Assembly: GCA_964405665.1 (NCBI GenBank) | Contig: CAYOOT010000001.1 | Coordinates: forward strand, 30,046-94,045 | Length of the DNA stretch: 64,000 nt | Source: an uncultured Bdellovibrionales bacterium | GTDB taxonomy: Bacteria; Bdellovibrionota_C; UBA2361; SZUA-149; CAZDWZ01 | Direction: 5' to 3' | Shown: one piece after another, positions 34,018 through 60,313 of the stretch | Layout: every line of letters begins with the position of its first letter | Numbering within the stretch: position 1 is the stretch's first letter | The notes under the pieces: model-generated | Seen by the model: the letters and a program-made list of their open reading frames with translations, nothing else | The model's database searches: none | Told to the model about the DNA's origin: nothing | Program-made: the position numbers and the translations under genes

Positions 34018-34716
34018 ATGGGAGAAAAAACTCTAAATATTTTTAGAAATATAAAAAAAATTATTAAAAAAATTTTTTATATTCTGAGCCGAATTCACAA
34101 AATTCCGAGAAGGCTTTATCAGCAAAAGCATCAAATGCACTATCTAACAGTTTATTCTTATCATCATATCCTGGCAAGTATTGCCTATAATCTAAAACTC
34201 TCAAATTTACTCTTTCTTCAACCGCTTGAAAAAATAAATTTTAATAAAAATAAAATTAAAATTGCTTTTATCTGCACGGGCAATATTTGTCGCAGCCCCT
34301 ATGCCGAAGCAAAAATGCGCTCACTTCTCAATCAATTAAATCTTAATCGCTTTGAAATTTCCTCTTACGGCACAAGCACTACCGCCGGGAAAAAGGTGGA
34401 TCCCTTCGCTTTGCAAATTGCTCGGTCCAAGGGAATTGATCTTAGTTCTCATCGCACCAAACAAATAACTGCAGAAATAATTAAAGAAATGGATTTGATA
34501 ATTTTTATGGGGACCCCTCATTATTTGGCCTTAAAAAAACTTGATCGCAATAGTCCTCAAAAATCCATTTATCTGGGCTCGATATTACTCAGTAAAACAC
34601 CAGAGTATCTTATTGATGATCCTTATGGGCACGATCCTGGGGTTTTTGCCTTTTGTTATCAAACTATAGATTATGCCTTAAGTCTTTTATTAAATGAAAT
34701 TAGAAAGAAAATTTGA
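34018..34716 (+). CDS. Low-molecular-weight protein-tyrosine phosphatase (Wzb-like)
   Basis: The P-loop CTGNICRSP lies in IAFICTGNICRSPYAEAKMR and the DP motif is near the C-terminus. The functional start is probably downstream of the 34018 ATG. Confidence 0.75.
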   Translation: MGEKTLNIFRNIKKIIKKIFYILSRIHKIPRRLYQQKHQMHYLTVYSYHHILASIAYNLKLSNLLFLQPLEKINFNKNKIKIAFICTGNICRSPYAEAKMRSLLNQLNLNRFEISSYGTSTTAGKKVDPFALQIARSKGIDLSSHRTKQITAEIIKEMDLIIFMGTPHYLALKKLDRNSPQKSIYLGSILLSKTPEYLIDDPYGHDPGVFAFCYQTIDYALSLLLNEIRKKI

Positions 34717-34747
34717 GACTGTAACCTAAACTTTGTAATTTCCAATA

Positions 34748-34849
34748 TACGTACGGAGCGCGGACTTTAGTCCGCTTATTTCCAAATATATTAATATAGC
34801 AGGATAAAAGTTTGGTATTAAGCAGACTAAAGTCCGCGCTCCGTACGTA
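34748..34849. repeat. Long inverted repeat: 28-bp arms with 1 mismatch and a 46-bp spacer, MITE-like
   Basis: TACGTACGGAGCGCGGACTTTAGTCCGC (34748-34775) pairs with GCAGACTAAAGTCCGCGCTCCGTACGTA (34822-34849). Each arm also contains the internal palindrome GCGGACnnnnGTCCGC. Confidence 0.7.
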
Positions 34850-34998
34850 TTATGCTTTTAATTACGTATACGGAAATTCCAATTAATTACACAGTTTAAT
34901 TTACAATCTCAAAAATTTAAGCAAAGCACTGGACTTGACTAATTGTTCATATTTCCATAAAAACTAAATATTTAGAGGTTAATAACCTAAAATTTGGA

Positions 34999-35205
34999 GT
35001 GGATGAGCGTATGGAGAGGAATAAGGATTTTCCCGAATGTTTGAAGTGTAAAGCGGGTGTACTAATTCCGCTTTCCGATTATGGTCAAGATGGCGCTTCT
35101 GTAACCTACAAAGCCTGGGCCTGCACTAATCCCGATTGTGGTTATTCTCTTAGAATCGATAAAGGCGAAGTGAGCTACGGCAGAAAGATTCAGGCAAAAC
35201 AATAA
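34999..35205 (+). CDS. Small zinc-ribbon protein (CxxC...CxxxxC)
   Basis: It contains CLKCKAGV...CTNPDCGYS. The ATG at 35011 with GGAG upstream is the likely start, since the track start at 34999 is GTG. Confidence 0.45.
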   Translation: MDERMERNKDFPECLKCKAGVLIPLSDYGQDGASVTYKAWACTNPDCGYSLRIDKGEVSYGRKIQAKQ

Positions 35206-35323
35206 ATAAATAACAGTTGTCCTATTGATTGGTACTTCGTAAATTAAAAAGATATTTGGAGAATTGTCCGATGTATATAATATCGGACAATTCAATATGT
35301 AATTTTAGAAGATAATCCCCAAT

Positions 35324-36202
35324 ATGCTAAAAAGTATCATTTCAATATATAAAGGAAATAGCAAACATCCTCTGAACCATAATCATCAATTTGCTTTTAT
35401 AAAAAGAGTTTTGCATTGGCAAATAAACCAGCTGATTAATCCCTATCCGGTTGTTTATCCTTTTCTGGGATCGAAATTAATTGTTCAAAAAGGCATGCAC
35501 GGAATTACGGGGAATATTTATAATGGCTTAGCTGATTTTAAAGAAATGTCTTTATTGTTGCATCTGCTAAGAAAAGACGATTTGTTTTTTGATATTGGAG
35601 CAAATTGCGGCACTTATAGTATTTTGGCTTCGGGCTGCAAACGAGCTGTTACCTATGCCTTTGAACCAATAAAAAAAACATTTGAACAAATTTCGCAGAA
35701 TGTCAAAATTAACAATCTTGAAGAATATATCAAGGTTTTCAATTTTGCTTTGGGAGAAAAAGAAGGTTTTGTTTCTTTTACCAACGATCTAGATACTTCA
35801 AATAAAATAATAGATGACACTGACGGGAATTTTTCGGATAAAAAGAACACAGAGCAAGTGATAATTAAGTCTCTTGATGGTTTTCTTAAAGAAGAAAATC
35901 CCCTCTTAATTAAAATAGATGTCGAAGGTCATGAAAAAAGTGTTTTAAACGGTGCGAAAAAATTATTGAATAATAGTTCCTTAAAAGCAATAATTATCGA
36001 ATCCAATGCCAGTATTAGTGATTTCTTAAAAGATTACGGTTTTAATAAATTTGATTATGATCCTTTTAAAAGAAACTTAATTCCCAATAACGATTTAACT
36101 AACGTCCCTTGGGGAAATCTAATCTTCATTAGAGATCCGGAATTTGTTCAAAAAAGACTGAGTGCAGCCGAAAAAATCAACGTATTCGATTTCTCATATT
36201 AA
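35324..36202 (+). CDS. FkbM-family methyltransferase
   Basis: It has the motif DIGANCGTYS and the FkbM domain architecture. It is a paralogue of 18235..18990. Confidence 0.65.
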   Translation: MLKSIISIYKGNSKHPLNHNHQFAFIKRVLHWQINQLINPYPVVYPFLGSKLIVQKGMHGITGNIYNGLADFKEMSLLLHLLRKDDLFFDIGANCGTYSILASGCKRAVTYAFEPIKKTFEQISQNVKINNLEEYIKVFNFALGEKEGFVSFTNDLDTSNKIIDDTDGNFSDKKNTEQVIIKSLDGFLKEENPLLIKIDVEGHEKSVLNGAKKLLNNSSLKAIIIESNASISDFLKDYGFNKFDYDPFKRNLIPNNDLTNVPWGNLIFIRDPEFVQKRLSAAEKINVFDFSY

Positions 36203-36241
36203 GATTTTCGTAATCAACAATAACATTCGAAGTAAATCCTG

Positions 36242-37435
36242 CTATTTGGCGCAAACTTTTTGCATGGCTTCCACTAAGGCCTCCAAATTGTCTTGGGGAG
36301 ACCAATGACTTATTTTTTCTAAACTTCTTTTTTTCAACTGATCAATTTGAGCACCTAATTGACTAACATTTATTAAAATTTCTTTCAGATGTTCGATGTC
36401 TGCGGTTTTGAAAATGAAACCATTTTTCCCATCTTCTACTAGATCAAATCTTGCTCCGATTTGATCGCTAACTATTGGAATAGACCCGCATAACATCGCT
36501 TCATTAACCACCAACCCAAAAGGTTCATATTCCGAAGGAAATATTAAAAAATCACTGATTGTATAAATTTTTGGCAGTTCTGATTGATTAACAAAACCAA
36601 GGAAAATAACTTTTTCCCCCAGTTTCAATCGAGATACTTCATTTTCCAATTCTTTTCTTAAAGGGCCTTCTCCTGCAAAAATCAAATATGAGTTATCCAA
36701 CATTGCTCTACTAAAAGCCGCTAAGGCATCCATCGGTCTTTTCCAAAATTGCAATTTGCCACTGAATAAAAAAACAGTTGCTGTAGCTGAAATATTTAAT
36801 TTCTTTCTTTCTTCAGTTTTGTTTACTTCATGGGAACGAGACATCCAATAATTATTATCCACCACATAAGGTAGAAGCTGGATTTTTTTATCTTTAATAC
36901 CCAATTTTTGAAAAAATCTTTTCGTAGCGGTTGAAGGAGCTAAAACAAGATCGGCTAAATTAAATATCCTCGGCAAAAGGATCTTTTTTAAAGAAATCTT
37001 CCAGTCTTTTTTATCTCTGGAGACAAGTTCATGGGCATCTGTGCCATATAAGAAAGGCACTCCCATAATTTTTGCGACAATCATCGTCATCCAAAATACA
37101 AATTTTGTATAACCGGTATGGATAAAAATTGCATCGAATTTGCCTTTAATTACCAAGGGAAATATTCCGATATTAATTAATCCCCAAAAGCTATCGCTCT
37201 CTTTCTTCCAGGAAAAATTTTTTAGTTGAACCCAATTATATCCATCAAGCAGTGGGATGTCCCATTTAAAAGACTTTTGAAATCCAGGATCAAAACTCTC
37301 AGTCGCCCCTTTCATACTGCAATAAGCAACTAGAATATCTAACCTGGGATCAGTAGCCATTAATCTACATAAAGGGGAAAAATATTGAACCGGATGTGAA
37401 GACACAAACAATATTTTATACTGTTTTTTTTTCAT
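36242..37435 (-). CDS. Glycosyltransferase family 1
   Basis: It has the GT-B motif EYEPFGLVVNEAMLCGSIPIVS. Confidence 0.7.
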   Translation of the reverse strand: MKKKQYKILFVSSHPVQYFSPLCRLMATDPRLDILVAYCSMKGATESFDPGFQKSFKWDIPLLDGYNWVQLKNFSWKKESDSFWGLINIGIFPLVIKGKFDAIFIHTGYTKFVFWMTMIVAKIMGVPFLYGTDAHELVSRDKKDWKISLKKILLPRIFNLADLVLAPSTATKRFFQKLGIKDKKIQLLPYVVDNNYWMSRSHEVNKTEERKKLNISATATVFLFSGKLQFWKRPMDALAAFSRAMLDNSYLIFAGEGPLRKELENEVSRLKLGEKVIFLGFVNQSELPKIYTISDFLIFPSEYEPFGLVVNEAMLCGSIPIVSDQIGARFDLVEDGKNGFIFKTADIEHLKEILINVSQLGAQIDQLKKRSLEKISHWSPQDNLEALVEAMQKVCAK

Positions 37436-48216: not shown

Positions 48217-48300
48217 TTTAGAACAACTCTTTACGCTAGCAAATTGCTCGCATTCACAAATCCGCCTTCGCTTCGACCTTAGCTAAAGCTACGGCAAGAT

Positions 48301-48358
48301 ATAGTATTTTTCAAAAGTTATGTCCGTAGTAACGGACATAACTTTTGAAAAATACTAT
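48301..48358. repeat. Palindromic repeat family B, best copy: a 26-bp perfect stem with a 6-nt loop
   Basis: The sequence is ATAGTATTTTTCAAAAGTTATGTCCG-TAGTAA-CGGACATAACTTTTGAAAAATACTAT. Related copies lie at about 47141-47210, 57495-57548 and 60241-60299. Confidence 0.8.
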
Positions 48359-48532
48359 AAATGGTTGTTTGAGTTTTTAGCCATTGACACAACATCGATC
48401 CTAGAGTTATTTAAAAGCATATTATATTGATTGGTCTTTCTTCTAAAAAACGAATTAAATACTTTTAAAAATTTGTATTAACAGTAAAACTTGAATTAAT
48501 CCATTGATTCAAAGAATTATTTATCAATAATT

Positions 48533-56253: not shown

Positions 56254-56521
56254 CGACTATAGCGTTAGCTCCAATCTTCTGAGCATGCTTGATCATTAAT
56301 TGAAAAGCTTCTTCTCTTGTTTGATCACAGAGTTCTGAAAAAATCCCGGCTCGTCCTCCCAACAAAGTCCGCAAACTTCCGACAATTGTCAGCGGCAAAG
56401 ATCTGGTTCTTACGGTAATCCCCCGAACTAATCCCATTGTCTTAACTATTCTATATTGGGCGATATCGAAAGTAGTTGAAATCATCATATAATTATAACC
56501 AATCGGGAAGATCTTTTGCAA
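56168..56521 (-). CDS. YbjQ/UPF0145-family protein
   Basis: The sequence ISTTFDIAQYRIVKTMGLVRGITVRTRS...IVGVRYDT is typical of the DUF74/YbjQ family. It overlaps the hemB 3' end. Confidence 0.6.
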   Translation of the reverse strand: MQKIFPIGYNYMMISTTFDIAQYRIVKTMGLVRGITVRTRSLPLTIVGSLRTLLGGRAGIFSELCDQTREEAFQLMIKHAQKIGANAIVGVRYDTGPMVGAAEVLCYGTAVVVEPNS

Positions 56522-57494
56522 AATAACTGATAATAAAATCTGCTCCTGCTCTTTTTATCGCATAAAGACTTTCCAAAGCCGCTAATTTTAAATCGATAAA
56601 ACCTTTTTCCGCTCCGGCATGAAGTAAACTATACTCACCGCTGACATGATAAGCCCCTACCGGAAGTGTAGTCATTTGAGAAACCTTGCTGATGATATCC
56701 AAATACAAAGTTGCCGGTTTTACCATCAACATATCTGCGCCTTCTTCAATATCCAGAAGTGTTTCGGTTTCCCATTCTTTGGTTCTTCGAAAATCCATTT
56801 GATAAGCTTGGCGATTGCCAAACTGCGGAGCGCCTTCTGCTGCTTCTCGAAATGGTCCATAGAATGAAGAAGCAAATTTTGTGGAATAACTCATGATCGA
56901 AGTATTTTTAAAACCTTCATAATCTAAAGTATGCCTTACTGCCTTAACCATACCATCAAACATACAAGAAGGAGCCACAATATCAGCTCCATTTCTGGCA
57001 AGAACCGCCGCTTGCCTTGCTATTTGTTCGATTGCTTGATCATTATCCACTGTTTCATCGGGATCGGAACTTAAGGGTCCGCAATGGCCGTGATCGGTAT
57101 ATTCACATGAACATAAATCTGTTACCAAAAGAGCTTTTGTTCCCTTTTCTTTTAAAGCTCTTATTGTCGTATTAACCGGATTATGATCATCAAGAGCAAT
57201 ACTGCCGCTAGCATCTTTTGAAGACTTTTCTACAATTCCAAAAAAAAGAAAATTAACTATCCCTCGATCGACAAGAGAGTCGACATAATTTATGGCCAAA
57301 TCCGGAGATAACTGGGAAATTCCCGGCATTGAAGAAATTGCTTTTGTTGCTTTTTCCCCCGTGCGCACAAATACTGGCATTACAAAATCTTTTGGATTTA
57401 AAGAGATATCGGAAACAAAATTTCTAACGAGTTCCCCTTTTCTTAATCTTCGAGGACGAATATTGGGATAAGGAAAATTATTTTTGATATTCAT
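56493..57494 (-). CDS. hemB: Porphobilinogen synthase (delta-aminolevulinic acid dehydratase)
   Basis: It has PRRLRK, the active-site MVKPA and other conserved HemB blocks, and is 333 aa long. Confidence 0.9.
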   Translation of the reverse strand: MNIKNNFPYPNIRPRRLRKGELVRNFVSDISLNPKDFVMPVFVRTGEKATKAISSMPGISQLSPDLAINYVDSLVDRGIVNFLFFGIVEKSSKDASGSIALDDHNPVNTTIRALKEKGTKALLVTDLCSCEYTDHGHCGPLSSDPDETVDNDQAIEQIARQAAVLARNGADIVAPSCMFDGMVKAVRHTLDYEGFKNTSIMSYSTKFASSFYGPFREAAEGAPQFGNRQAYQMDFRRTKEWETETLLDIEEGADMLMVKPATLYLDIISKVSQMTTLPVGAYHVSGEYSLLHAGAEKGFIDLKLAALESLYAIKRAGADFIISYFAKDLPDWL

Positions 57495-57548
57495 ATATTT
57501 TTCTATAAGTTATGTCCGCAGTAACGGACATAACTTATAGAAAAATAC
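57495..57548. repeat. Palindromic repeat family B copy (stem of about 23 bp) in the divergent hemB/apt promoter region
   Basis: ATATTTTTCTATAAGTTATGTCCG-CAGTAA-CGGACATAACTTATAGAAAAATA abuts the hemB start codon. Confidence 0.7.
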
Positions 57549-57639
57549 AATAGCAGCAAGAATAAATCAAATTTATGAAGGTTTAATATTCATAGAGTTA
57601 AATAGTGACTTTTAATGCCTTGTCTGCTAGAGACGAGCT

Positions 57640-58204: not shown

Positions 58205-58325
58205 ATTCGAAGAGCAGACATCAGAATTCAGAGGTCGGAATTCTGAAATCGGATATCAGATGTCAGACATCGGAGGTCAGAATTCTGATGTCCGATATCG
58301 GACATCAGAGATCGGAGATCAGAAA
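58205..58325. repeat. Cluster of degenerate 12-14-bp ATCGGAnATCAGA-type repeats with embedded palindromes, between convergent genes
   Basis: Reiterated units include CATCAGAATTC / GAATTCTGATG, ATCGGATATCAGA, CGATATCGGACATCAGA and GATCGGAGATCAGA. Confidence 0.6.
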
Positions 58326-60180: not shown

Positions 60181-60299
60181 ATCCCCCCTTCGCTAAACTT
60201 GTCATCCGTAGCTTTAGCGAAGAATGAAGCTTCGGGGGATATAGTTTTTTCTAAAAGTTATGCTCGTAAATAACAAGCATAACTTTTGAAAAATACTAT
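60181..60299. repeat. Composite repeat: an inverted-repeat module (ATCCCCCTTCGCTAAA...CTTCGGGGGAT) followed by a family B palindrome copy
   Basis: ATAGTTTTTTCTAAAAGTTATGC...GCATAACTTTTGAAAAATACTAT lies at 60241-60299. The upstream module shares CTTCGCT/CTAAAGCTACGG cores with 48243-48300. Confidence 0.65.
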
Positions 60300-60313
60300 A
60301 AAATAGCGAGTTT

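What the first reader, a model, noticed from the sequence alone, without database searches (positions are those of the whole stretch)
34737..34885. MITE-like element: 28-bp terminal inverted repeats around a 46-bp core
Near-perfect 28-bp arms (1 mismatch) each contain the sub-palindrome GCGGACTTTAGTCCGC. They flank an AT-rich spacer. The direct repeats AATTTCCAAT / AAATTCCAATT lie outside the arms. The element sits between a Wzb-like phosphatase and a small zinc-ribbon gene. This is the size and structure of a miniature inverted-repeat element or a protein-binding operator pair.
Basis: seen in the sequence. Interest (0 to 1): 0.5.

Follow-up and report, generated by a model that had tools for sequence, protein, structure and literature searches.

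The report
REPIN hairpin inside a 196-bp insertion
The inverted repeat is real: it is a pair of REP sequences (a "REPIN") from a family serviced elsewhere by RAYT tyrosine transposases, and it sits inside a 196-bp mobile-looking insertion that close relatives lack, so it is selfish repeat DNA and not a local operator.

Summary
The inner arms are 40 nt (34747-34786 and 34811-34850, 93% complementary). They lie inside a second inverted repeat (34715-34740 and 34885-34910).

Each inner arm carries the 21-mer GGAGCGCGGACTTTAGTCCGC. A 19-mer from it hit more than 93 loci in other genomes, mainly Verrucomicrobiota and Chloroflexota. There it occurs singly or as inverted doublets with variable spacers. 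Its 6-bp hairpin covaries. In five loci it flanks both sides of a small HUH/Y1 gene that matches NCBIfam "REP-associated tyrosine transposase". So the core is a REPIN, with a non-canonical GGAG head instead of GT[AG]G.

Three distinct related lineages (five contigs) keep the same phosphatase / zinc-ribbon gene order but have only 65-100 nt between the genes. The window has 196 extra bases (34715-34910). These are bounded by 26-nt terminal inverted repeats and an 8-bp duplication (GAAAATTT / AAAAATTT) of a sequence present once in the empty site. The insert also supplies part of the phosphatase stop codon.

I found no second copy and no RAYT gene in the 64-kb window. The rest of the host genome (Bdellovibrionota-like) could not be searched.

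The parts
34715..34910 (.). Whole inserted element: 196 nt, a nested hairpin, absent from the orthologous sites of relatives
   Evidence: Relatives L098/L099, L100 and L101/L102 have 100, 87 and 65 nt between the phosphatase and zinc-ribbon genes; the window has about 294 nt. Junctions were read. DNA fold -47.7 kcal/mol, z = -10.2.
34707..34714 (.). Left copy of the target duplication, GAAAATTT (AAAATTT 34708-34714 is identical to the right copy)
   Evidence: The empty site in L098/L099 reads GAAGAAAATTTAAGGCAAGG, with a single copy. The window has one copy on each side of the insert.
34911..34918 (.). Right copy of the target duplication, AAAAATTT
   Evidence: After it, the sequence resumes collinear with the relatives (TAAG-CAAAG...ACTTGACTAATT).
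34715..34740 (+). Outer left terminal inverted repeat, GAGACTGTAACCTAAACTTTGTAATT
   Evidence: (pair I2). It is unique in the window and matches the right terminus at 22 of 26 positions.
34885..34910 (-). Outer right terminal inverted repeat (reverse complement reads GAGATTGTAAATTAAACTGTGTAATT)
34747..34786 (+). Inner left arm (40 nt), which contains REP-L
   Evidence: pair I1; confirmed in the whole-window scan (I2).
34811..34850 (-). Inner right arm (40 nt), which contains REP-R
   Evidence: pair I1.
34755..34775 (+). REP-L: GGAGCGCGGACTTTAGTCCGC. It is identical to the family consensus: a 5' GGAGC head plus a 6-bp stem and 4-nt loop.
   Evidence: 0 mismatches. Family consensus and sharp boundaries. 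ssDNA hairpin -6 kcal/mol.
34822..34842 (-). REP-R: GGAGCGCGGACTTTAGTCTGC (one mismatch to consensus), inverted relative to REP-L. REP-L and REP-R together form the REPIN.
34776..34821 (.). REPIN spacer: 46 nt, AT-rich like the host, partly palindromic (TTATTTCCAAA / TTTGGTATTAA)
   Evidence: It has no similarity to the spacers of other loci.
34748..34753 (.). TACGTA immediately left of the REPIN (then C34754). It recurs immediately right of the REPIN at 34844-34849 and again at 34863-34868.
   Evidence: Read. This explains why the inner arms extend 8 nt beyond the REP, although no such extension is conserved in the family. The extended arm gave only one unrelated hit in the metagenome scan.
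34018..34716 (+). Low-molecular-weight phosphotyrosine phosphatase gene. Its stop codon TGA (34714-34716) straddles the left junction; relatives use TAA or TAG at the same place.
35011..35205 (+). Small protein of 64 aa with two Cys pairs (zinc-ribbon-like). The protein is identical in L098, L099, L101 and L102.
34935..34940 (+). TTGACT block conserved in all relatives, downstream of the insertion. It is a likely -35 element of the zinc-ribbon gene promoter (inference).
   Evidence: Alignment invariants; sequences.

Best explanation
The inverted repeat is a REPIN: two inverted copies of a 21-nt REP (GGAGCGCGGACTTTAGTCCGC, a 5' GGAGC head on a 6-bp/4-nt hairpin) separated by a 46-nt spacer.

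**What the REP family is.** The family is spread and maintained by REP-associated tyrosine transposases (RAYTs). These are HUH/Y1 enzymes that recognise the hairpin plus its 5' head on single-stranded DNA. In this window the REPIN is the core of a 196-nt non-coding hairpin element (34715-34910) with its own 26-nt terminal inverted repeats.

**How it got here.** The 196-nt unit was inserted after this lineage split from its sampled relatives. It landed at the last base of the phosphatase gene's coding sequence and duplicated 7-8 bp of target (AAAATTT).

My preferred mechanism is a single-step insertion of a pre-assembled composite. The outer termini and the staggered-cut duplication are the footprint of a DDE-type transposase acting in trans, as for a MITE. 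The REPIN was acquired earlier by a master copy of that MITE, when a RAYT placed it at a TACGTA palindrome in the MITE's stem or loop.

**What it does at this site.** The element is a passenger, not a regulator that the locus needs. Its likely side effect is a very stable stem-loop that begins inside the phosphatase stop codon. That stem-loop would block or end read-through into the zinc-ribbon gene, whose own conserved TTGACT block lies just downstream and is intact. It might also protect the 3' end of the phosphatase mRNA.

**Shown:**
- the repeat anatomy;
- membership of the REP sequence family;
- the family's association with RAYT genes elsewhere;
- hairpin covariation;
- empty sites in relatives, and the duplication.

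**Inferred:**
- which enzyme moved which layer;
- one step versus several steps;
- any effect on transcription or translation.
For: 1. **Family membership.** REP-L matches the consensus at 21/21 positions and REP-R at 20/21. About 4 hits are expected by chance for 596 Gb (my arithmetic). It is multi-copy in single MAGs, for example at least 13 contigs of Verrucomicrobiia SMAG_U6315.
2. **Unit boundaries.** The boundaries are sharp: there is no conservation upstream of the 19-mer, CGC follows it in 82-85 of 91 instances, and nothing is conserved after that. 50 of 91 copies have an inverted partner within 160 nt, with spacers from about 12 to 124 nt. The rest are solo.
3. **Hairpin under selection.** 93.6% of cells are paired against 84.5% in shuffles. 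23 double-change cells are seen against 3.7 +/- 1.7 (0 of 500 shuffles reach this). Slid controls give 26-37% paired.
4. **Cognate enzyme.** An unbiased ORF clustering of the loci found a small HUH/Y1 protein in five of them. Two representatives, one from each subfamily, were scored. They reach 98.8 and 103.7 bits on NCBIfam NF047646 "REP-associated tyrosine transposase" (cutoff 80), plus Pfam Y1_Tnp. All five genes are flanked on both sides by the REP, in a REPtron arrangement.
5. **Insertion.** Three distinct relatives (L098/L099, L100, L101/L102) share the gene order but have intergenic regions of 100, 87 and 65 nt. With the insert removed, the window is 82% identical to L098 over 1006 columns. 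The empty site carries one AAAATTT and the window carries two, flanking the insert.
6. **One unit rather than three events.** In Anaerolineales copies (L033, L056, L073, L092) the sequence outside the REP doublet is also conserved and palindromic. Larger composite units built around this REPIN therefore exist elsewhere.
7. **Residence in AT-rich DNA.** The spacer and outer parts are AT-rich like the host. This argues that the element has lived in AT-rich genomes and is not a fresh fragment from a GC-rich donor.
Against: - No second copy of the REP (up to 7 mismatches) or of the outer termini was found in the 64-kb window, or in the 8 retrieved contigs of close relatives (L095, L096, L098-L103; about 31 kb). 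A more distant 21-kb contig (L109) showed only one weak match at 6 mismatches.
- No RAYT homologue lies in the window. The only weak tblastn hit falls in hemB.
- The outer termini matched nothing in viral contigs, plasmids or phages. No autonomous element with these ends is known to me.
- Y1/HUH transposition as known from IS200/IS605 makes no target duplication. The duplication therefore cannot be credited to a RAYT without a new mechanism. That forces a second, unseen enzyme into the story.
- The canonical 5' GT[AG]G head of REPs is absent.
- The effects on transcription and translation are untested. No U-tract follows the hairpin on the + strand.
Confidence: 0.75

Rival explanations
1. Extended REPIN moved as one unit by a RAYT. 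The whole 196-nt hairpin is simply this lineage's version of the REPIN. It was mobilised through a single-stranded hairpin intermediate by a RAYT encoded elsewhere in the genome. The AAAATTT repeat arose from microhomology-guided repair or from an unknown feature of RAYT-mediated integration.
For: Only one enzyme family is needed, and it is the one shown to accompany this REP. Other lineages have REPIN units with conserved palindromic sequence outside the REPs (L033, L056, L073, L092). The whole 196 nt folds as one hairpin. How REPINs integrate has never been established biochemically (my knowledge).
Against: Across 91 family members nothing outside the 21-22-nt REP is conserved. The extended arm was not found in AT-rich DNA in metagenomes. 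Known Y1 transposases do not duplicate their target (established for IS608/ISDra2; my knowledge). No RAYT lies in the window.
Confidence: 0.25
2. Stepwise nesting in place. First a roughly 98-nt hairpin element (outer arms plus the TTATGCTTTTAAT loop) inserted with the AAAATTT duplication. Later a 92-nt REPIN inserted into its TACGTA palindrome. Both events occurred at this locus in this lineage.
For: TACGTA directly flanks the REPIN on both sides (34748-34753 and 34844-34849), and a third copy at 34863-34868 pairs with the left one. Removing the REPIN and one TACGTA leaves a clean roughly 98-nt hairpin (read).
Against: This needs two rare events within 100 bp since divergence from relatives that are about 82% identical in DNA. 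REPIN duplication is estimated at about once per 10^8 host generations (bioRxiv 10.1101/2021.07.10.451892). No intermediate (outer element without a REPIN) was seen in any of the five related contigs.
Confidence: 0.12
3. Local regulatory palindrome or operator pair. On this view a dimeric DNA-binding protein recognises the two GCGGACTTTAGTCCGC half-sites to control the phosphatase or the zinc-ribbon gene.
For: There are two identical sub-palindromes 62 bp apart, between two genes. The element is single-copy in the window.
Against: It is absent from every relative that keeps both genes and the conserved TTGACT block. The same 21-mer is dispersed in many copies through genomes of other phyla and brackets RAYT genes. 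It lies upstream of, not over, the conserved promoter-like block.
Confidence: 0.03
4. Assembly artefact or chimera: a palindromic mis-join or contaminating GC-rich fragment in a metagenome-assembled contig.
For: The source appears to be an uncultured organism. An independent low-coverage assembly of the same strain (L095) ends about 80 nt before the element, so I have no second assembly that spans it.
Against: Both flanks are collinear with the relatives, and the junctions carry a clean duplication. The arms are imperfect (93% and 85%), and the loop and outer parts have host-like AT content. Neither feature is expected of a fold-back artefact. Only 42 of the 196 nt are GC-rich REP.
Confidence: 0.03

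Closest known systems
REP / REPIN-RAYT systems (E. coli REP/BIME with TnpA_REP; Pseudomonas fluorescens REPINs)
   Same: A short (21-nt) extragenic palindrome with an unpaired 5' head. It occurs singly and as inverted doublets that form long hairpins with variable spacers. It is multi-copy within genomes and flanks a single small HUH/Y1 gene on both sides (REPtron). The hairpin is kept by compensatory changes.
   Different: The head is GGAG(C), not the canonical GT[AG]G (PMC6006769, section 12). The identical 21-mer is shared by RAYT loci of two phyla whose RAYTs are only 31-42% identical, whereas REPs are described as lineage-specific and co-evolving with their RAYT (bioRxiv 10.1101/2021.07.10.451892). 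In this window the doublet is single-copy per 64 kb, has no RAYT nearby, and is embedded in a larger unit with a target duplication.
TIRtrons / TIRYT-associated repeats (Di Nocera et al. 2013, PMC3733652)
   Same: These are tyrosine-transposase genes flanked by inverted repeats that lack GTAG. Some are self-complementary, form moderately abundant families, and are organised as dimers or clusters like REPs.
   Different: The families reported there share GGGGWSAS or are unrelated to each other. Neither GCGGAC nor GTCCGC occurs in that paper's main text. The proteins here pass NCBIfam's RAYT model. I did not test them against the TIRYT groups.
Classical bacterial MITEs (for example the Neisseria Correia element)
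   Same: About 100-200 bp, non-coding, with terminal inverted repeats (26 nt here), flanked by a target-site duplication. Presence or absence varies between related genomes, and the elements fold into a long hairpin that can be transcribed with neighbouring genes.
   Different: No further copies and no parent insertion sequence have been found for the outer termini. The core is a REP doublet of a Y1-transposase system, which is not a feature of described MITEs as far as I know.
IS200/IS605-derived palindrome-associated elements (PATEs)
   Same: Non-autonomous elements that depend on an HUH/Y1 transposase recognising DNA hairpins.
   Different: IS200/IS605 ends are two different subterminal hairpins in direct orientation, and insertion is next to a specific tetra- or pentanucleotide without duplication (my knowledge). 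Here there are two identical hairpins in inverted orientation, and no consistent flanking tetranucleotide.

Membership tests
REP / REPIN (RAYT-dependent) | Short (about 20-40 nt) imperfect palindrome that forms a stem-loop | tested here: met
   21-nt unit with a 6-bp stem and 4-nt loop, ssDNA -6 kcal/mol. Covariation across 47 distinct variants.
REP / REPIN (RAYT-dependent) | Two REPs in inverted orientation that form a hairpin (the REPIN) | tested here: met
   REP-L 34755-34775 (+) and REP-R 34822-34842 (-) with a 46-nt spacer. The 92-nt unit folds at -30.6 kcal/mol as DNA, z = -10.4.
REP / REPIN (RAYT-dependent) | Copies of the same REP flank a RAYT gene (REPtron) | tested here: met
   Met for the sequence family: all five RAYT loci are flanked on both sides (L008, L041, L055, L062, L080). 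Two representatives, one per subfamily, score 98.8 and 103.7 bits on NF047646 against a cutoff of 80. Not met inside the window, where no RAYT is present.
REP / REPIN (RAYT-dependent) | Conserved 5' GT[AG]G tetranucleotide at the foot of the hairpin | tested here: not met
   The head is GGAG, followed by C and then the stem. Variants are GGAA, GGAC and GGAT. The requirement is taken from PMC6006769, section 12. This makes it a non-canonical REP.
REP / REPIN (RAYT-dependent) | Many dispersed, mostly intergenic copies in the host genome | tested here: inconclusive
   Multi-copy in other genomes (at least 13 contigs of one MAG). Only one doublet in this 64-kb window, none in the 8 close-relative contigs (about 31 kb), and only one weak 6-mismatch match in the more distant L109. 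The rest of the source genome could not be searched.
MITE (DDE-transposase-dependent) | Terminal inverted repeats at the exact ends of the inserted unit | tested here: met
   GAGACTGTAACCTAAACTTTGTAATT at 34715-34740 against 34885-34910, 22/26, flush with the junctions.
MITE (DDE-transposase-dependent) | Target-site duplication verified against an empty site | tested here: met
   GAAAATTT / AAAAATTT (7 of 8) flank the insert. There is a single copy in L098/L099, and a related sequence in L100.
MITE (DDE-transposase-dependent) | Small and non-coding | tested here: met
   196 nt. No ORF of 40 aa or more lies within it.
MITE (DDE-transposase-dependent) | Multiple copies in the genome | tested here: inconclusive
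   The outer termini are unique in the window and absent from the fetched loci, viral contigs, plasmids and phages.
MITE (DDE-transposase-dependent) | Termini shared with an autonomous insertion sequence | not tested
   No IS database was available, and no candidate was seen in the window.
Operator / transcription-factor site | Conserved at the orthologous locus in relatives that keep the regulated genes | tested here: not met
   Absent from L098, L099, L100, L101 and L102.
Known RNA families (Rfam 15) | Match at or above a family's gathering score | tested here: not met
   At the gathering threshold the window gave only two tRNAs. In E-value mode the only hits were generic long-hairpin miRNA-precursor models, far below their cutoffs.

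The most novel reading that the evidence does not exclude
A REP "master sequence" (GGAGCGCGGACTTTAGTCCGC) is identical to the base in RAYT loci of Verrucomicrobiota and Chloroflexota, and it turns up intact in a Bdellovibrionota-like genome as a recent insertion with a target duplication. If the host has no matching RAYT, this would be a REPIN that crossed phyla by hitch-hiking inside a MITE moved by a different, DDE-type transposase. That would be a route of horizontal spread and cross-mobilisation that the current view of REPIN-RAYT systems (strictly vertical and lineage-specific) does not allow. Alternatively, if bare REPINs of this family also make 7-8-bp duplications, RAYT-dependent integration would work differently from the IS200/IS605 model.
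Probability: 0.15. Interest if true: 0.7.

Novelty: new variant of a known kind. Interest (0 to 1): 0.4.

Why it matters
REPs and REPINs are among the commonest bacterial repeats, but how they integrate and whether they ever move between lineages remain open questions. This locus offers three things that are rarely seen together.

- It gives a clean filled-versus-empty site comparison for an element that contains a REPIN. The junctions are exact and there is a target duplication.
- It belongs to a non-GTAG REP family whose 21-nt sequence is far more conserved across phyla than the transposases that accompany it.
- It shows a nested architecture that points to interplay between a Y1-type system and a cut-and-paste-type system.

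For annotating this window the message is simpler. The palindrome is selfish repeat DNA inserted at the 3' end of the phosphatase gene. It is not a conserved regulatory site.

Tried and rejected
- **Rfam.** Nothing but two tRNAs at the gathering threshold. In E-value mode the region matched only eukaryotic miRNA-precursor models at 20-40 bits against cutoffs of 53-140, which is a generic long-hairpin effect.
- **Literature search for the motif strings.** No papers. Searches for the sample accessions also returned nothing.
- **Lineage-specific copies.** I searched metagenome contigs with the extended arm ACGTACGGAGCGCGGACTTTAGTC. The single hit was in an unrelated 59-64% GC contig, so the 8-nt extension of the arms is local and not a family feature.
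- **RAYT in the window.** The only tblastn hit (E = 0.004, 56454-56711) lies in hemB and was rejected.
- **Outer termini elsewhere.** Nothing in the window, in the fetched loci, in viral contigs (degenerate pattern), or in plasmids and phages, where only E >= 0.2 chance hits in AT-rich DNA appeared.
- **A preferred flanking tetranucleotide (IS608-style target).** None was found; AAC precedes 20 of 101 copies, and nothing is stronger.
- **Empty sites for a bare REPIN of the family.** An all-against-all flank comparison of the fetched loci gave no pairs. At the L037 site the orthologous loci L107 and L108 (ABC-F protein 90% identical) carry the REPIN too, with a different spacer. Whether bare REPINs make duplications is therefore unanswered.
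- **More genome of the lineage.** Exact-protein look-ups returned only 2-5-kb contigs. A 21-kb contig of a DnaB relative turned out to be 55% GC and had only one weak REP-like match at 6 mismatches.
- **Terminator reading.** The scan flags only the small REP-L hairpin followed by TTATTTCC. No U-tract follows the full hairpin on the + strand, so I do not call it an intrinsic terminator.
Full report

Yes. The repeat finder reports arms at 34747-34786 and 34811-34850: 40 nt, 93% complementary, 24 nt apart. It is the second-longest inverted pair within 400 nt in the whole window.

The 27-mer ACGTACGGAGCGCGGACTTTAGTCCGC occurs at 34749-34775 (+) and, with one mismatch, at 34822-34848 (-). None is expected in shuffles. 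The sub-palindrome GCGGACTTTAGTCCGC occurs only here.

The region is therefore a nested hairpin of about 200 nt.
- RNA fold of 34700-34925: -86.6 kcal/mol (+ strand) and -92.2 kcal/mol (- strand), z = -12.6 and -13.4.
- DNA fold of 34715-34910: -47.7 kcal/mol, z = -10.2.

Upstream is a low-molecular-weight phosphotyrosine phosphatase (Pfam LMWPc, E = 1.2e-28). Downstream is a small protein with two Cys pairs and no Pfam match.

**2. What the arms are**

A 19-mer from the arm (CGGAGCGCGGACTTTAGTC) was searched in one genome per bacterial and archaeal species. I calculate about 4 chance hits for 596 Gb.

The hits are mostly Verrucomicrobiota and Chloroflexota (Anaerolineae and Chloroflexia). There are single hits labelled Planctomycetales, Acidoferrum and others. 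One MAG has hits on at least 13 contigs.

Reading the hits and tabulating their flanks gives a sharply bounded unit, GGAGCGCGGACTTTAGTCCGC.
- Nothing upstream of the 19-mer is conserved.
- CGC follows the 19-mer in 82-85 of 91 copies, and conservation then stops.
- 50 of 91 copies have an inverted partner within 160 nt. The spacer runs from about 12 to about 124 nt and is lineage-specific, often itself palindromic.
- The remaining copies are solo, and one locus (L077) has the minimal perfect palindrome.

The partner copies were not selected by my search pattern, and they show compensatory stem changes: GGAC/GTCC to GGGC/GCCC, AGAC/GTCT, GGAA/TTCC and CGAC/GTCG. Counted on 47 distinct variants:
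- 93.6% of cells pair, against 84.5% in shuffles and 26-37% when partners are slid;
- 23 cells change on both sides, against 3.7 +/- 1.7 in shuffles, and 0 of 500 shuffles reach that number.

The hairpin itself is therefore under selection.

**3. Which enzyme goes with it**

I clustered all ORFs of the fetched loci without any prior expectation. Apart from ubiquitous families (ABC ATPases, short-chain dehydrogenases), one cluster stood out. It is a protein of 174-270 aa with HUH and Y motifs, found in L008, L041, L055, L062 and L080.

Two representatives, one from each subfamily, score 98.8 and 103.7 bits on NCBIfam NF047646 "REP-associated tyrosine transposase" (cutoff 80). They also hit Pfam Y1_Tnp. 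All five genes have the 21-mer on both sides, as single copies or doublets and often within a few bases of the ORF ends. This is the REPtron arrangement that defines REP/RAYT systems (PMC6006769).

The Chloroflexota-type and Verrucomicrobiota-type proteins are only 31-42% identical to each other over about 90-120 aa. Even so, they are flanked by the identical 21-mer.

The inner element of the window is therefore a REPIN:
- REP-L at 34755-34775 (21/21 to the consensus);
- REP-R at 34822-34842 on the other strand (20/21);
- a 46-nt AT-rich spacer between them.

It is non-canonical in one respect. Canonical REPs carry a 5' GT[AG]G foot (PMC6006769, section 12), and this family has GGAG. Di Nocera et al. 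described tyrosine-transposase genes flanked by non-GTAG repeats, some of them self-complementary and dimer-forming ("TIRtrons"). That is the nearest published description, but this sequence does not appear in that paper's main text (PMC3733652).

**4. What was inserted here**

The host is an uncultured Bdellovibrionota/Oligoflexia-like bacterium with 36% GC. Its DnaB finds named relatives at 69-79% identity labelled Proteobacteria bacterium, Bdellovibrionota, Bdellovibrionales and Oligoflexia.

Homologues of the phosphatase and exact matches of the zinc-ribbon protein led to five contigs from related organisms:
- L098 and L099 (phosphatase 86% identical);
- L100 (phosphatase 71% identical);
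- L101 and L102 (zinc-ribbon protein identical).

All five keep the phosphatase followed by the zinc-ribbon gene. Their intergenic distances are 100, 100, 87, 65 and 65 nt, against about 294 nt in the window.

Read by eye, the empty site in L098 is GAAGAAAATTTAAGGCAAGG. The window reads GAAAGAAAATTT | GAGACTGTAACC ... ACAATCTC | AAAAATTTAAGCAAAG.
- The insert is 34715-34910 (196 nt).
- Its ends are 26-nt inverted repeats, 22/26, flush with the junctions.
- It is flanked by GAAAATTT (34707-34714) and AAAAATTT (34911-34918), a sequence present once in the empty site.

With the insert removed, the window aligns to L098 at 82% identity over 1006 columns. Because three separate relatives lack it, insertion in the window's lineage is the parsimonious direction.

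The left junction falls in the phosphatase stop codon. Relatives end in TAA or TAG, whereas the window ends in TGA (34714-34716), with the GA supplied by the insert. The protein's C-terminus is unchanged. A TTGACT block conserved in all relatives (34935-34940) lies just downstream and is untouched.

**5. The layers inside the insert**

From outside to inside:
- the outer terminal repeats;
- a middle layer, AATTTCCAATATACGTA at 34737-34753, which pairs with TACGTATACGGAAATT at 34863-34878;
- the REPIN.

TACGTA directly abuts the REPIN on both sides (34748-34753 and 34844-34849) and recurs at 34863-34868. This explains why the inner arms run 8 nt beyond the REP, although no such extension is conserved in the family or recovered from metagenomes. 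Either the REPIN entered a TACGTA palindrome, or it entered the top of an existing stem.

**6. Mechanism**

Three things are shown: the REP family, its RAYT association, and the insertion with its duplication. The rest is inference.

Nesting by several independent events within 100 bp since the split from 82%-identical relatives is unlikely. REPIN duplication has been estimated at roughly once per 10^8 host generations (bioRxiv 10.1101/2021.07.10.451892), and no intermediate was seen here. In Anaerolineales the repeated unit around this REPIN also extends beyond the REPs (L033, L056, L073, L092).

I therefore favour a one-step insertion of a pre-assembled composite. Terminal inverted repeats plus an 8-bp duplication are the footprint of a staggered-cut (DDE-type) transposase. 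Known Y1 enzymes such as those of IS608 leave no duplication (my knowledge). My best reading is a MITE whose master copy had earlier acquired a REPIN.

The main rival is that the whole hairpin is an extended REPIN moved by a RAYT, with the duplication produced by an integration step nobody has yet characterised. I could not discriminate between the two. The outer termini found nothing in the window, fetched loci, viral contigs, plasmids or phages. The one attempt to find an empty site for a bare REPIN showed the REPIN retained in all orthologous loci, with only the spacer replaced.

**7. Effect at the locus**

The element is absent from relatives that keep both genes, so it is not required regulation and not an operator. 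Its likely side effect (inference) comes from a very stable stem-loop whose base includes the phosphatase stop codon.
- It would act as a barrier to read-through into the zinc-ribbon gene.
- It could act as a 3'-end protector of the phosphatase mRNA.
- REPs close to stop codons have been reported to reduce translation in E. coli (Liang et al. 2015, cited as reference 30 in PMC6006769; I did not read it).

There is no U-tract after the hairpin on the + strand, so I do not call it an intrinsic terminator.

**8. Limits**

- I saw one copy in 64 kb. No REP copy turned up in the 8 close-relative contigs (about 31 kb), and the more distant 21-kb L109 showed only one weak match at 6 mismatches. No RAYT gene lies in the window.
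- Some phylum labels on single hits come from MAG bins and may reflect mis-binning. The two phyla with RAYT loci are secure.
- An independent assembly of the same strain ends about 80 nt short of the element, so the junctions rest on one assembly plus the collinear relatives.

**9. Verdict**

It is a new variant of a known kind. The non-GTAG head, the base-perfect sharing of the REP between phyla, and the clean empty site with a duplication make it more interesting than a routine REP. The single copy and the missing enzymes keep the stronger claims unproven.

Noticed in passing
window 48300-48359, 57478-57565, 60240-60300: A second, unrelated family of roughly 60-nt near-perfect palindromes (TATAGTATTTTTCAAAAGTTATGTCCGT-agta-ACGGACATAACTTTTGAAAAATACTATA). 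Five half-site matches were found against 0.05 expected. They are AT-rich and look like the host's own REP-like or terminator-like repeat.
   Followed up: partly
window 58217-58324: A block of overlapping palindromes and short tandem units of the TCAGAATTCTGA / ATCGGA type (pairs I1, I4 and I9). Its nature was not examined.
   Followed up: no
window 35324-37435 versus L101 586-2350 and L102 262-2026: In L101 and L102 the zinc-ribbon gene is followed directly by dnaB. The window, L098 and L099 carry at least an FkbM-type methyltransferase gene at that position, and in the window a glycosyltransferase gene lies between it and dnaB. This is a gene-content indel next to the element.
   Followed up: no
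L041 663-1475, L080 4334-4951, L052 3862-5778: ORFs end in ...ERGL* because the REP read in frame (G GAG CGC GGA CTT TAG) supplies the last codons and the stop. This parallels the window, where the insert supplies part of the phosphatase stop codon.
   Followed up: partly
L037 4730-4786, L107 1335-~1440, L108 1337-~1440: The same REPIN site is occupied in three Anaerolineales genomes whose ABC-F proteins are about 90% identical. The spacer has been replaced (15 nt against about 70 nt) and the right-hand REP has decayed. This indicates long vertical persistence with spacer turnover.
   Followed up: partly
L073 2469-2660: A tandem array in an Anaerolineales MAG: the REPIN plus a 45-nt palindromic linker is repeated head-to-tail at a 92-nt period, a BIME-like cluster.
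   Followed up: no
L094 11421-11475 (IMG/VR UViG_3300011441_000019): One predicted viral contig carries a REPIN of this family. This could be a vehicle for horizontal movement or a mis-called prophage.
   Followed up: no
window 34722-34735 and 34983-34996: A 14-nt direct repeat (TAACCTAAACTTTG / TAACCTAAAATTTG, 13/14) links the outer left arm of the insert and the native region just upstream of the zinc-ribbon start codon, which relatives also have. It may be chance in AT-rich DNA.
   Followed up: no
window ~35262-35297: A perfect 12-bp hairpin (GAATTGTCCGAT ... ATCGGACAATTC) lies after the zinc-ribbon gene. It shares a GTCCG/CGGAC core with the palindromes at 48300 and 57500.
   Followed up: no
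L095 (ENA ERZ3430527 NODE_20588), end of contig: A low-coverage assembly of what appears to be the same strain (identical IspE) breaks inside the phosphatase gene about 80 nt before the insertion. This may be a repeat- or hairpin-induced break, or simply 2x coverage.
   Followed up: no
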